This document shows positions 36,936-41,669 of a DNA stretch of 64,000 bases, in pieces (within the stretch, counting starts at the first letter, position 1; every line of letters begins with the position of its first letter). The translations under genes were made by a program, and so were the position numbers. Source of the stretch: Podarcis vaucheri (lineage: Eukaryota). The notes below the pieces were generated by a model. The model had not been told where the DNA came from. It was given only the letters and a program-made list of their open reading frames with translations, and did not search any database. The stretch lies in assembly GCA_965113315.1 (NCBI GenBank), contig OZ220366.1. One strand, given 5' to 3'.

Positions 36936-39807
36936 TCATAGGGAAAAATTCCCTTCCCTCGCCAAAGGTTCAAAGCACCAGGGAACATTTTGGGCATACT
37001 GGTAATGTTCAAAGCAGCATCCTTTCTTCAAGCATTCATCAGCAGAGATGCCAGGGAATCCACAACCCACCCTTTTGTTTGGTGCCATTCCACACATCTT
37101 GGGAGGTCCTTAAAATGAAAAAGAATGAGAAAGAAGAACTTTTGACTCAGAGTTTTTTATTTTTGTGTTGTTTGTTGTTTTTTTTTAAAAAAGTTAATTG
37201 GATTGTGAAGCTGCCCCATAATTCCTCTATGAATGTGTATCAATTTCTGTCTATATTATACTATAGTATTCTCACACAAGCTGATGAGGTTCTGGACCAT
37301 ACAGCTTTACACTGCAGGGGGGGGATTTACTTTATGCTGTGAAAGGCTGAAGACTCCAAAGGGAAGGAAGGAAGGAAGGAAGGAAGGAAGGAAGGAAGGA
37401 AGGAAGGAAGGAAGGAAGGAAGGAAGGATCCCTCTATACATGGATGGGAGAAGCTTTCCTAACTATTAAAGTAGATGCTGATCTACTTTAATAGCCAGGA
37501 AAGCTTCTGCACCCTGCAATGTAAATTTGTTCTTCTGCCTATTTCCTCCCAGTATTATTGGATATGTCTGAGTTCTAGAATGCATAAGATCCTGATACGT
37601 TTTGAAGTAAAGGAAGAAGATACATTCAAATGAAAAATAAATGGGAAAGGCTTTTGATATAAAATACTCTGCAAACCTATTGGATCTTTAGTTTACTTCA
37701 ATGTATTTCTACAATCATAAGTTGTTGTTTTTACAAGATGTGCTATCAGGGCCAGCACTAGGATTTATTTATTTTTTTTGGGGGGGGGGACAGAGCTTTG
37801 GCCAGGTGCCCTTCAGTTAGCTCCTCTTACCATCACTCTGATACTCTCCCAAGCTTACCAGGAAACCGATGACAGTGGGTGTGGGTGGTTGGCAATAGCG
37901 GTGGGCCATGATGCTGAAAGCAGGGCAGCTCTACCTTTCTGGCTCCTCCTCAGACCAGAGTTGTTAAGACAAGTACTAGATGAGAGAGTGGCAGCTGCTG
38001 TCGTCTTCATCATTCCCAATGCCTCTGGGACTCACCCCGCTGTTTCTGTGATGGGGTGGGGCCCAGAGGCATTAAGGTGAATGAAGATGGCACCTGACCA
38101 GCACATCTCTTCACAGTGCTTGTCCAAAAATATATATATATTTTACAAATAAAAGAATTGAAGCTGGAGTCAGCTGACACTGGGGCTGGAGACATGCTGT
38201 CATATCCTATACACACAGAATTGAAGTGGTGGGGAGAAAAATGGGCAACTAAAAAAAATTAAAATGGCACAAGACTATAGTTGCAGTCCAGTATCCTTGG
38301 AAACAGTTCCAGTAGCAACCAGACAATGCCTGTGCTAACACTGACTTGCCAAATACAATCAGAATATTCAAAATACAGAGGGCAAAATCCTCATAATTCC
38401 ATTACTTTTATTTCTGGAAAATATGGATTTTGCAATAAAAATGTGATATCTCAACAATAAGTAAATGCAATATTATAGTCCATCCAATATTTTTGTATTC
38501 TCATTCCAGGACAGAATCTCTATGGACATGGATCAAGATGCTATCCCTACACTGCTCTCTGTAGGCATACTTCATCCCTCTCTATTTCAGACACATCTGT
38601 TGTCACAAGCAAGTTGCTGCTCTGTTACCTGTTACGGATGTTGGGTAAAAACACCATCGAGTACTAACAACATATGAATTGAAACAGCATCCTCTTCCCT
38701 GGCATTCCTCGGCTGTGATGCCTGGGTATCCACAGTCTTCCCTTGCGCTCATGTCCATTACACAATGCTGGGAAACTGTTCAGAAGAATGAATCATGTTA
38801 CTGCCAGCCTTCTGTTACTTCTATAGATGTGCCTTTCATGTATTTATCTGTTTGGTTATTTTAACCATAGAATACACAACCCATTAAAAGACTTGTTATG
38901 GACCATGACTTAGGCAGAAACAATTAACTGGTCAAAGGGTTGGGCCCAATCCTATTTTCTCACTATCATGTGGATAGGAGTCCTCTTCTACATTGGGCTG
39001 GAATTTGGAGGAGGCAGAAAAAACACTTCTGTCCACCAGTGTTCGGAACAGAGATAAAACTGTAGAGTTGGAAGACACCACAAAGGTCATCTAGTCCAAA
39101 CCCTTGCAATGCAGGAATCCTTTCCCCAACATGGGGCTTGAACGGATGATCCTGAGATTAAGAGTCTCATGCTCTACTGACGGAGCTATCCTCAGCCAGT
39201 GAGGCTTACTGTTGCCTGCCTTGTGCTCTTTGGGGAAGAAACAGACTGTGGAACAGGAACTCTCCTTTTCCATTAACCAGTCCTCAATAGGTGCATGCCC
39301 TGGTTATCTCTTGCTTGGATACATGTGACTACTTTTGAAGGTGACTTGGAAACTACAACTAATCCAGAATGTGACAGCTAGACTGGTGACTGTGAGTGGC
39401 CACCAGGACCATATAACACTGGTCCTAAAGGATCTTCACTGGCTTCCAGTACGTTTCCAAGCACAATTCAAAATGTTGGTGCTGATCTTTAAAACCCAAA
39501 ACGGCCTTGGCCCAGTATACCTGAAGGAGCCTCTCCATCCCCATTATTCAGCCCAGACACTGAGGTCCTCCATCAAGGGTCTTCTGGTGGCTCCCTCACT
39601 GTGAGAAGTGAAATTACAGGGAACCAGGCAGAGGGCCTTTTTAGTAGTGGTGCCCTCCCTGTGGAACGCCCTCCCTTCATATGTCAAGGAAATAAAGAAC
39701 TACATAACTTTTAGAAGACATCTGAAGACAGCCCTGTATCAGGAAGGGTTTTTTATGTTTGATATTTTACTATGTTTTACATGTGCTGTAAGCCACCCAG
39801 GGTAGGG

Positions 39808-39858
<51 letters not shown>

Positions 39859-41669
39859 TTTGTAACAAAACTATTGATTGTTTACATGACATCAGGTTAC
39901 ATAAGAACCTAAAGGAACATGATTGTGAATGGGCTTATATTTCCCCTCTTGAATTTGGAGAACATTAACACAAAGTCATTACCCTCATTCACTGGGGGAT
40001 AGAAGCACATTGATGTGTCAGAAGCCTTTCGGTCAAAACAGCATCCAATCCTTTTGCACCTCTTGCGCGTGATCCCTTGATAGCCACAGTCCACTCTTGC
40101 TTGCGGTTCAATCATACTCTTTGCATATCGGAGTGAAGCTATTGGAAACCATATGCCATGTTTTAGGCAGCTTGTAATGTTGCTTTCAGCCTAGGTTGAG
40201 AAATAACTCCTTGTTGGCTTAAATGAAGCTCATCAAAACCAAAATCCAAGGACCTAAATCAAGGTCCTGGAGCTTAGACCCCACCCCCTGGCACAGAGTC
40301 CAAACAGCCGAAGGACTGCCTCTTCCCACTGCAGCCTGTCCCATGTGTTAAGATGCAAAGCCCTGCTCCAAGTGCATTCTTTATTTGAAGTGTGCTGTAA
40401 AATGGCACAGGAGACCAGGTGCTCTGTGGTGGCAACCAGGCTCTGAAATGCCTCCCCCAGGGAGCATGATGAGCACATCTTTAGTTATTTTAGCTATTCC
40501 ATTTCTTGCCTGCCCTTCACTAAATTCATGAATCCAGAGTGAGTAACTGGAGGAATTGTTTACAAAATTTGGACGGCTGCATGTTGGTTCTCATATCATT
40601 TCAGAAAGTGTGGATTAGGTCATGTGAAACGAATCTAATTTCTACCCTGTCCCTAGCTACTTCCCATTCCTCCCCCAAACCTTTCGTGTATCATTTACCT
40701 CTTTCTCCAGAAGGTTTGAAGCACCATGGGACTTCAGGCACAGTTGCATCAAAGCAGCAGCCCTTTTCTGTGCATTGCTCTGCAGTGATGCCTGCAGAAG
40801 TGGAATCACACCTCTTTCTAGCCTGGACATCCATCAGACATTGGCATGCATCTGTTTGGAAGGAATTGCTATATTTGGAGCAACCATATTCACCACTCCA
40901 TTGTAAAGTAACCAAATGTGGGGTGGACAGTTGGTGTGTCACGTTGTGAGCTGGGTTTACAGAAAATAAATCACGTGGTCCCTTAATACTTTGCATTTCT
41001 TCATGGATTCAAAATATCTCAACCAATTCACAAGGCTCCTATCTCCTATTGTGAAGAGTCCATCTGGCTGTAACTGGATGAGCTTTAATGTGAGAGTTTG
41101 GGATAAGCAAACGCAGCCTATAAGTAACAGGAGCTTAACATTACAACAAGCAAGAAGTCTGCTGCACATCCATCAGATACCTGCCTCACAGGGGCTGGTA
41201 CAGTCTCCTTGTCTTTGGTGCCAACATTATCATTTTATACAAACCAATGTTTGGTCAGCAAGTGTGGGTTGTCTTCTGTTCTCTTTGTCAACAGTGATGG
41301 CGACAGTGGTTGGGTGGGTGTCTATAGGACATGGCACTGTAACATGGGTTTATGAAGCTATAATAAGAATGCCTAAAGCAATTTATGGGCTACAACAGCA
41401 GCACTAAAGGTTATCCTCAGTTGACCTCACATAGAGAAAATAATAATTTCTTCTATGGGGATTATTTTTAGTAACAATTTATAGATGACTGCGTTTGCCT
41501 GTTGTTTCTGAATAGATTTGCTGTTCGGCATTAACTCGGCTTCTTTTGTTTATTAAGAAACAAATATTATATGCAATATATACTTACATGGTGGATGTCT
41601 TCTATTTTGGGAACATACAGATCCTAAGCACAGGACAGCAACCAATAATAACCATTGCTTGCATTCCAT
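36936..41669 (-). CDS. Four-trefoil-domain secreted protein, TFF2-like (236 aa, 5 exons)
   Basis: Exons 41669-41588 (signal MECKQWLLLVAVLCLGSVCS-QNRRHPP), 40851-40699 (YACQCLMDVQARKRC...WCFKPSGER), 40138-39983 (ASLRYAKSMIEPQARVDC...MCFYPPVNE), 38775-38629 (VSQHCVMDMSAREDC...WCFYPTSVT) and 37108-36936 (GPPKMCGMAPNKRVGC...WCFEPLAREGNFSL*). All phase 1 GT-AG, 711 nt open; AATAAA at 36675-36680; TATAAA at 41742-41747. Confidence 0.85.
39290..39858 (+). mobile_element. L2 LINE 3' fragment with (AAT)n tail
   Basis: LQLIQNVTARL...[14 protein letters not shown] remnant typical of the L2 ORF2 C-terminus. Confidence 0.8.

What the first reader, a model, noticed from the sequence alone, without database searches (positions are those of the whole stretch)
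36936..41669. Four-trefoil-domain protein in an amniote TFF cluster
Seen: one signal exon followed by four phase-1 trefoil exons in a 236-aa open frame, with its own TATA box and poly(A) signal, beside a normal TFF2. Domain 1 has the TFF2-type CQC and domain 3 the CVM motif of the TFF2 second domain. Established: mammalian TFFs have one or two domains; a four-domain peptide (xP4) is known from Xenopus stomach. Inference: an independent exon-duplication derivative of TFF2, potentially a multivalent mucin cross-linker.
Basis: partly seen in the sequence, partly recalled or inferred. Interest (0 to 1): 0.75.

Follow-up and report, generated by a model that had tools for sequence, protein, structure and literature searches.

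The report
Squamate four-trefoil factor with rewired domain
Lizards and snakes share an extra gene in the trefoil-factor (mucus-protecting peptide) cluster that encodes four trefoil domains, but its second domain has lost a core cysteine and in this lizard only the third domain keeps both known sugar-binding residues, so it is likely a mucus-anchored adaptor rather than the four-armed mucus cross-linker its database name suggests.

Summary
On the minus strand a signal exon and four phase-1 trefoil exons give 236 aa. The gene lies between a one-domain TFF and an intact TFF2, next to TMPRSS3, in a lacertid lizard. Orthologous models exist in 35 squamate species, geckos to snakes (26 hold all four domains). 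RefSeq often auto-names them 'xP4'; my searches found no paper on them.

Domain 2 lacks trefoil Cys1 in 43 of 43 records and is strongly basic. Domain 1 keeps TFF2's extra N-terminal cysteine, while its usual C-terminal partner is gone. The GlcNAc-a1,4-Gal-binding pair (Asn/Asp plus Trp) occurs in 0/35 domain 2 and 0/30 domain 4; domain 3 has Asp/Glu plus Trp in 32/32.

So a tetravalent cross-linker is unlikely. Best reading: a mono- or divalent mucin-anchored adaptor with an inferred Cys30-Cys112 bridge. Origin independent of xP4 is favoured (no positional match, amniote TFF2 motifs), but AU tests do not reject xP4 pairings. No read-level splicing evidence was obtained.

The parts
41742..41747 (-). 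TATAAA box, 78 nt upstream of the ATG
   Evidence: same spacing as in the two neighbouring TFF genes (-77, -83)
41588..41669 (-). Exon 1: predicted signal peptide (about 20 aa) and start of the mature chain; holds Cys19, whose removal with the signal is not established
   Evidence: Cys19 present in 26 of 29 orthologs
40699..40851 (-). Exon 2: trefoil domain 1 with the extra TFF2-type cysteine Cys30 (40846-40844); Arg at the Asn/Asp lectin position; 2-residue insertion after Cys2
39983..40138 (-). Exon 3: degenerate but conserved trefoil domain 2. Ser86 (40118-40116) stands where Cys1 belongs, Cys112 (40040-40038) has no canonical partner, Met replaces the lectin Trp, and the Cys2-Cys4 segment is strongly basic; predicted helix 77-87
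   Evidence: helix in both low-confidence AF2 models
38629..38775 (-). Exon 4: trefoil domain 3, the only domain here with both lectin residues (Asp144, Trp171); closest to mammalian TFF2 domain 2
36936..37108 (-). Exon 5: trefoil domain 4 (Gly at the Asn/Asp position, 2-residue insertion in loop 3). No GT at the position where paralogs splice; the frame ends in an N-glycosylation sequon (36950-36942) with no terminal cysteine
   Evidence: sequon in 18 of 18 models with a natural end; Cys in 0 of 18 tails
36675..36785 (-). Candidate poly(A) hexamers ATTAAA (36785) and AATAAA (36680); not above chance
29019..32772 (-). Context: intact two-domain TFF2 downstream, with Asn+Trp in both domains
48380..49947 (-). 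Context: single-domain TFF upstream, in the TFF1 position
56243..60118 (-). Context: serine-protease exons matching the TMPRSS-like part of a sheep fusion model; read as TMPRSS3, the known neighbour of the TFF cluster (gene name recalled)
   Evidence: tblastn with P0029/P0049, E to 2e-24

Best explanation
This is a squamate-wide four-trefoil gene of the TFF cluster that likely arose from a TFF2-type paralog by exon duplication independently of frog xP4, and it is predicted to work as a secreted, mucin-anchored adaptor rather than a four-armed cross-linker. Steps: (1) Shown: gene anatomy, position and conservation across squamates. (2) Inferred from TFF biology: secretion from mucous cells of the gut or mouth. 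(3) Inferred from the known binding residues: domain 3 (in some lineages also domain 1) binds the GlcNAc-a1,4-Gal cap of MUC6-type mucin and tethers the protein in mucus; domains 2 and 4 do not use this site. (4) Inferred from cysteine bookkeeping: Cys30, whose TFF2 partner is gone, bonds Cys112, whose Cys1 partner is gone, locking domains 1 and 2 into one module; a predicted helix (77-87) replaces the lost first loop. (5) Most speculative: the invariant basic face of domain 2 (Lys104, Arg105, Arg108) binds a polyanion (acidic mucin glycans or microbial surfaces) or a protein partner, so the protein bridges a-GlcNAc mucin to a second ligand. Rough odds: real gene 0.95; four-domain state independent of xP4 0.75; not tetravalent for the TFF sugar 0.75; Cys30-Cys112 0.55.
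For: Orthologous models in 35 squamate species, 26 with all four domains in one model; 14 full-length ones are 67-95% identical to the P. muralis protein. Each domain is about as conserved as the neighbouring TFF2, so the odd domains are under constraint, not decaying. Cys1 is absent in 43 of 43 records with the domain-2 core; only 8 other domains of 954 scanned lack it. The window chain has 24 cysteines after residue 20, an even number with one surplus in domain 1 and one deficit in domain 2. Three species lack Cys19 yet keep both features. Lectin pair by domain, strict N/D+W: 8/30, 0/35, 9/32, 0/30; allowing Glu: 19/30, 2/35, 32/32, 0/30. Controls: sauropsid TFF2 20/20, mammalian TFF2 12/12, xP4 orthologs 17/19. 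Loss of either residue abolishes ITC-detectable binding, and monomers do not agglutinate mucin (PMC7221086). Mean charge around Cys3-Cys5 is +4.8 for domain 2 against about -1 for domains 1, 3 and 4. Origin: discrete motifs and the 22-of-24 rank; in the 144-row tree domain 1 joins amniote TFF2 domain 1 at 99/92.
Against: No read-level evidence that the four exons are joined or where the gene is expressed. Both AF2 models are low-confidence (mean pLDDT 54.7 and 57.4) and give no Cys-Cys distances, so the Cys30-Cys112 bond rests on counting alone. Cys19 is kept in 26 of 29 orthologs and 18 of 29 have Pro at residue 20, which is poor for cleavage there; if Cys19 stays, the count is odd. Domain 3 has Glu, not Asn/Asp, in 23 of 32 species, and binding with Glu is untested, so many orthologs may have no site at all. 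The N14A mutant of TFF1 kept weak avidity binding, so domains 1 and 4, which keep Trp, may add some. The domain-1/TFF2 clade was not recovered in the 60-row tree, and AU tests reject no xP4 pairing. No ligand for the basic face is known; it could simply pack against the acidic domains.
Confidence: 0.42

Rival explanations
1. Covalent assembly: Cys30, Cys112 and possibly Cys19 are not paired with each other but form intermolecular bonds, giving a homodimer (then divalent through two domain-3 sites and able to cross-link mucin) or a heterodimer with a partner, as TFF1 does with gastrokine-2; or a free thiol acts as a scavenger.
For: Cys19 is kept in 26 of 29 orthologs and may stay in the mature chain. 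TFF1-GKN2 heterodimers and secreted xP1 with a free thiol are described (PMC6929139). Dimerisation would restore the divalency that cross-linking needs.
Against: Surplus and deficit balance exactly within one chain in all orthologs, including the three without Cys19. The acidic flank described for free TFF1/xP1 thiols is absent around Cys30 and Cys112.
Confidence: 0.25
2. One reading: a convergent xP4 analog whose several domains bind a-GlcNAc mucin glycans and cross-link mucus by avidity.
For: Four Pfam trefoil domains; Trp kept in domains 1, 3 and 4; allowing Glu, 15 of 26 complete orthologs have two or more sites; a TFF1 Asn mutant kept weak avidity binding; xP4 is mucin-bound.
Against: This lizard has one intact pair; 0/35 domain 2 and 0/30 domain 4 have the strict pair, and domain 1 has Arg, Gly or Ala in 11 of 30. 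TFF2 and xP4 keep the pair almost everywhere. An intact divalent TFF2 sits next door.
Confidence: 0.18
3. True ortholog of amphibian xP4: the four-domain state is ancestral to tetrapods, kept in squamates and reduced elsewhere.
For: Same domain number; RefSeq names many orthologs 'putative gastrointestinal growth factor xP4'; AU tests reject none of five Q-X pairings (p 0.14-0.50); xP4 is regarded as the TFF2 ortholog.
Against: Collinear score ranks 22 of 24, while frog-versus-caecilian xP4 ranks 1 of 24. The CxC and Met motifs are shared with amniote TFF2 and absent from 19 of 19 xP4 domains. No squamate domain groups with an xP4 domain in either tree. The same name is also given to coral and bichir proteins, so it is not an orthology call.
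Confidence: 0.12
4. Not one four-domain protein: the exons belong to shorter transcripts, or are spliced into neighbouring TFF genes, and the 236-aa form is a modelling artefact.
For: Many database models fuse this gene with its neighbours or skip exons; weak pyrimidine tract at the exon-3 acceptor; no read evidence obtained here.
Against: One signal exon and TATA serve all four exons. 18 models end at the same position. A 236-aa Micrurus lemniscatus record likely comes from a de novo transcriptome, since that taxon's venom-gland transcriptome was Trinity-assembled (PMC5488037; the link to the record is my inference).
Confidence: 0.03

Closest known systems
TFF2 (spasmolytic polypeptide; porcine structures 1PCP/1POS/2PSP)
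   Same: Best solved relative (E 3.5e-25, aligned to domains 2-3). Same cluster; extra CxC cysteine before domain 1; CVM motif; the spacing from domain-2 Cys6 to domain-3 Cys2 equals that between the TFF2 domains (22 residues).
   Different: Four domains instead of two; no C-terminal cysteine to close the chain; domain 2 lacks Cys1 and Trp; lectin pair in one of four domains here; a separate intact TFF2 is adjacent.
Xenopus xP4 and its amphibian orthologs (P0051, P0141, P0039, P0146)
   Same: Signal peptide plus four tandem trefoil domains, similar length, no terminal cysteine; shares the automatic database name. P0051 ends in 12 of the 13 residues of the published anti-xP4 peptide.
   Different: xP4 domains keep six cysteines and the lectin pair (17/19 strict) and lack the CxC and Met motifs; no domain-by-domain correspondence (rank 22 of 24). 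Xenopus xP4 itself was not among the listed hits; orthologs stood in.
Second TFF2-like gene of tuatara, alligator and turtles (P0091, P0154, P0060, P0044, P0038, P0040)
   Same: CQC start in tuatara and alligator; Met at Cys1+2; in the fused turtle model P0040 it lies directly upstream of TFF2, the slot of this gene. Likely the sister gene (inference).
   Different: Two domains with a terminal cysteine (tuatara, alligator P0154) or three near-identical domains (turtles); all six core cysteines kept; no basic five-cysteine domain.
TFF1/xP1 and TFF3
   Same: Trefoil fold (model matches 6V1D at Z 7.7, rmsd 2.1 over 49 residues of domain 4); precedent for a surplus cysteine.
   Different: Single domain with a seventh, C-terminal cysteine; here the surplus cysteine is N-terminal and the unmatched one is inside a domain.

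Membership tests
Trefoil factor family (TFF peptides) | Secreted peptide made only of trefoil (P-type) domains | tested here: met
   Four Pfam PF00088 hits, E 6e-15 to 1e-13; hydrophobic N-terminus read by eye as a signal peptide; no signal-peptide predictor was run
Trefoil factor family (TFF peptides) | Gene in the TFF cluster with phase-1 domain exons | tested here: met
   Between a one-domain TFF and TFF2, near TMPRSS-like exons
Trefoil factor family (TFF peptides) | Six cysteines per domain (1-5, 2-4, 3-6) | tested here: not met
   Met in domains 1, 3 and 4; not met in domain 2, which lacks Cys1 in 43 of 43 records. The protein is filed as a variant for this reason
Trefoil factor family (TFF peptides) | Asn/Asp before Cys2 and Trp before Cys6 in each domain (GlcNAc-a1,4-Gal site) | tested here: not met
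   Only domain 3 in the window; strict counts 8/30, 0/35, 9/32, 0/30; residues from PMC7221086
Trefoil factor family (TFF peptides) | Measured lectin binding and mucin cross-linking | not testable with these tools
   Needs ITC and agglutination assays
Trefoil factor family (TFF peptides) | Expression in mucous cells of the gut or other mucosa | tested here: inconclusive
   No read data were laid; a Micrurus record likely derives from a venom-gland transcriptome (inferred link)
TFF2 | Two domains closed by an N-terminal and a C-terminal cysteine | tested here: not met
   Four domains; N-terminal CxC present, terminal Cys in 0 of 18 natural ends
TFF2 | Domain 1 groups with TFF2 domain 1 | tested here: inconclusive
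   99/92 in the 144-row tree; not recovered in the 60-row tree, constraint not rejected, p 0.43
xP4 | Four tandem trefoil domains | tested here: met
xP4 | Domain-by-domain orthology with amphibian xP4 | tested here: inconclusive
   Against: rank 22 of 24 and motif differences. Not rejected by AU tests, p 0.14-0.50
xP4 | All four domains canonical (six Cys, lectin pair) | tested here: not met

The most novel reading that the evidence does not exclude
A trefoil factor whose disulfide core has been rewired: an inter-domain Cys30-Cys112 bond replaces the universal Cys1-Cys5 bond and turns domains 1-2 into a cationic non-lectin module, carried on a single mucin-binding domain whose exon can be skipped in frame. 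It would be a squamate-specific bifunctional mucus adaptor or antimicrobial tether, kept for about 190 million years, and a second, independent origin of a four-domain TFF with a different job from xP4.
Probability: 0.3. Interest if true: 0.75.

Novelty: new variant of a known kind. Interest (0 to 1): 0.55.

Why it matters
The six-cysteine trefoil core and its two sugar-binding residues are treated as the defining constants of TFF peptides. A paralog that lost one core cysteine in one domain and the lectin pair in at least two, yet stays as conserved as TFF2 from geckos to snakes, points to a trefoil function other than GlcNAc-a1,4-Gal binding. Whether TFFs have such functions is an open question in that field, and this protein gives a natural test case. 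It also shows that the database name 'xP4' on squamate proteins is misleading, and that domain number in the TFF2 slot likely grew separately in amphibians, turtles and squamates. It has no direct medical bearing, and the protein is already present in public annotations.

Tried and rejected
Whole-genome search: no genome is held for this window. Sequencing runs: no RNA holder is listed on record; four runs of one study, guessed to be RNA, hold 0.26-0.29 of the words, but no reads were laid, so this is not used as evidence. AlphaFold2 with 20 and 43 orthologs: mean pLDDT 54.7 and 57.4; fold searches only confirm single trefoil folds and say nothing on domain packing. AU tests on about 50 columns had no power: five xP4 pairings and the TFF2 domain-1 grouping were all unrejected, and the domain-3/TFF2 test did not finish. 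ESM Atlas returned only trefoil clusters. Sequencing error as the cause of the missing Cys1 was rejected, because orthologs have Arg, Lys or Gln there. Pseudogene decay was rejected on conservation. The poly(A) hexamer was set aside as not above chance. My first domain-3 pattern failed and was corrected. Literature searches found no paper on this gene; subscription journals are mostly not covered. The supplement of PMC5488037 could not be read. Earlier scan findings: none.
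Full report
Observation. The gene is on the minus strand. Exons 41669-41588, 40851-40699, 40138-39983, 38775-38629 and 37108-36936 are separated by four phase-1 GT-AG introns and join to 236 codons plus stop. Exons 2-5 each match Pfam Trefoil at E 6e-15 to 1e-13. TATAAA lies 78 nt before the ATG, as in the two flanking TFF genes (-77, -83). The poly(A) hexamers exist but 377 of 1275 random 260-nt windows hold one too. The order along the transcribed strand is: serine-protease exons read as TMPRSS3 (name recalled), a one-domain TFF, this gene, an intact TFF2, and two basic one-domain copies. 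The joined protein is identical at 228-230 of 236 positions to Podarcis proteins, so the source is a lacertid lizard.

Distribution. Three protein searches, a cluster look-up and a full HMMER scan returned 331 proteins. Orthologous models come from 35 squamate species: geckos, a skink, a cordylid, lacertids, anguimorphs, iguanians and snakes. 26 of the 35 hold all four domains in one model; the other nine are partial or skip an exon. RefSeq names many 'putative gastrointestinal growth factor xP4', a name also given to coral and bichir proteins. The domain-2 core occurs in 43 of the 331 records: 42 named squamates and one unnamed record that matches the Varanus sequence. Only the top 120 or 150 hits of each search were listed, so absence outside squamates is not proven. 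Crown squamates date to about 190 million years (PMC12629976, abstract in the search listing). Per-domain identity to the window is similar for this gene and for the neighbouring TFF2 in nine species, so all four domains are under constraint.

Domain 2 has five cysteines. No cysteine stands 8-13 residues before Cys2 in 43 of 43 records; only 8 other domains among 954 scanned lack one, at least two of them in fused gene models. With the standard 1-5, 2-4, 3-6 pairing, Cys112 is left without a partner. Domain 1 keeps the extra CxC cysteine of TFF2 (Cys30), which in TFF2 bonds a C-terminal cysteine (established knowledge). Here the last exon has no GT where paralogs splice, and 0 of 18 naturally ending models have a cysteine in the tail; all 18 end in an N-glycosylation sequon. 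After residue 20 the window chain has 24 cysteines. The simplest reading is a Cys30-Cys112 bond between domains 1 and 2. This is inference. Cys19 is kept in 26 of 29 orthologs and may not be cleaved off, though the three that lack it keep the other two features. Two AlphaFold2 models are low-confidence (pLDDT 54.7, 57.4), give no distances, and agree only on a helix at 77-87 where loop 1 of domain 2 would start.

All human TFFs bind GlcNAc-a1,4-Gal through two side chains, TFF3 Asp20 and Trp47; mutants showed no binding by ITC, and monomers did not agglutinate mucin (PMC7221086, parts 1-2 of 6 read). By my count on a sheep TFF3 domain these are the residues just before Cys2 and Cys6. In the window they are Arg+Trp, Asp+Met, Asp+Trp and Gly+Trp for domains 1-4. 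Across species the strict pair occurs in 8/30, 0/35, 9/32 and 0/30; allowing Glu, 19/30, 2/35, 32/32 and 0/30. Of 26 complete proteins 15 have no strict site, 8 one and 3 two; allowing Glu, 11 have one, 14 two and 1 three. Controls keep the strict pair: sauropsid TFF2 20/20, mammalian TFF2 12/12, xP4 orthologs 17/19. Against over-reading this: Glu is untested, and a TFF1 Asn mutant kept weak avidity binding. Domain 2 instead carries invariant Lys104, Arg105 and Arg108 and a mean local charge of +4.8, against about -1 in the other three.

Origin. Xenopus xP4 was not among the listed hits. I used amphibian orthologs, identified because P0051 ends in 12 of 13 residues of the published anti-xP4 peptide (PMC6929139, part 1 of 4 and passages read). 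In a 144-domain tree each squamate domain and xP4 domains 1-3 form their own clades, squamate domain 1 joins amniote TFF2 domain 1 at 99/92, domains 3 and 4 pair at only 91/75, and none groups with xP4. A 60-row tree did not recover the domain-1 grouping, and AU tests rejected none of five pairings with xP4 domains (p 0.14-0.50), so the trees do not decide it. Two other tests lean towards independence. The collinear score against xP4 ranks 22 of 24 domain orders, while frog against caecilian xP4 and gecko against snake rank 1 of 24. The CxC and Met-at-Cys1+2 motifs are shared with amniote TFF2 domains and absent from all 19 xP4 domains. The positional test is weak at this depth: mammalian TFF2 against xP4 domains 3-4 scored only 269 versus a mean of 258. 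Tuatara and alligator have a second two-domain TFF2-like gene and turtles a three-domain one that lies just upstream of TFF2 in a fused model; this is the likely sister gene. A history of exon doubling (D1, D1', D2, D2') fits the TFF2-like spacing between domains 2 and 3 but is not shown.

Mechanism. I commit to a secreted, mucin-anchored adaptor: domain 3 holds it on a-GlcNAc-capped mucin, domains 1-2 form a disulfide-locked module, and the basic face of domain 2 binds a second, probably anionic, ligand (0.42 for the whole chain of steps). Rivals are covalent dimers or heterodimers through the unmatched cysteines (0.25), an xP4-like avidity cross-linker (0.18), true xP4 orthology (0.12) and a modelling artefact (0.03). 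Two database models skip the domain-3 exon in frame (Lacerta isoform X2, Phrynosoma), which would remove the predicted anchor if real.

What is not shown. No reads were laid, so joining of the four exons rests on conservation, 18 models with a common end, and a 236-aa Micrurus record that likely comes from a de novo venom-gland transcriptome (PMC5488037, abstract and passages read; supplement unreadable, and it may bear on this link). Tissue of expression, disulfides and binding are untested.

Novelty. The protein is in public annotations under an automatic name. Seven searches of the open-access library found no paper describing it. The chicken TFF evolution paper names an anole TFF2 only in a tree legend (PMC3146476, passages); a review (PMC7350206, passages) has no hit for 'reptile'; a preprint on gastric gene loss (10.1101/2024.12.02.626498, passages) has none for 'lizard' or 'squamate'; PMC6282355 (passages) was a false match. 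Verdict: a new variant of a known kind. Interest 0.55.

Noticed in passing
window about 24001-21990 and about 8820-7230, minus strand: Two cationic single-trefoil genes in a segmental duplicate (85-91% DNA identity), with a Gly/Arg- or Gly-rich stretch after the signal peptide and six cysteines with no seventh. Orthologs in Pogona, Varanus and Sceloporus have Pro/Arg-rich N-termini. Candidates for antimicrobial trefoil peptides (inference).
   Followed up: partly
P0002, P0004, P0019, P0132, P0047 (snake models): Snake TFF2 models repeat domain 1 two or three times almost unchanged, suggesting recent tandem duplication of that exon or gene.
   Followed up: no
P0044, P0038, P0040 (turtles); P0091, P0154, P0060 (tuatara, alligator): A second TFF2-like gene in non-squamate reptiles, with two domains or three near-identical domains; in one fused turtle model it lies directly upstream of TFF2.
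   Followed up: partly
window 38775-38629; P0025, P0035: Two database models skip the domain-3 exon in frame, removing the only domain predicted to bind mucin glycans.
   Followed up: no
window 36950-36942: An Asn-Phe/Tyr-Ser sequon within the last residues is kept in 18 of 18 naturally ending orthologs, in sequence beyond the position where paralogs splice.
   Followed up: partly
window 45288-44857 and 41723-41670; P0010, P0122, P0123, P0006, P0136: Many models fuse neighbouring TFF genes or add upstream exons through acceptor-like sites just before the ATG; read-through transcription or annotation artefact, undecided.
   Followed up: no
P0141, P0039, P0146, P0051 versus TFF2: xP4 domain 3 is the xP4 domain closest to TFF2 domain 1 (mean score about 150; 93/87 with sauropsid TFF2 domain 1 in the 60-row tree), while salamander models hold only xP4 domains 1-2.
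   Followed up: partly
window 35560-35692: Assembly gap of 133 N between this gene and TFF2, next to a SINE-like stretch (recognised from memory).
   Followed up: no
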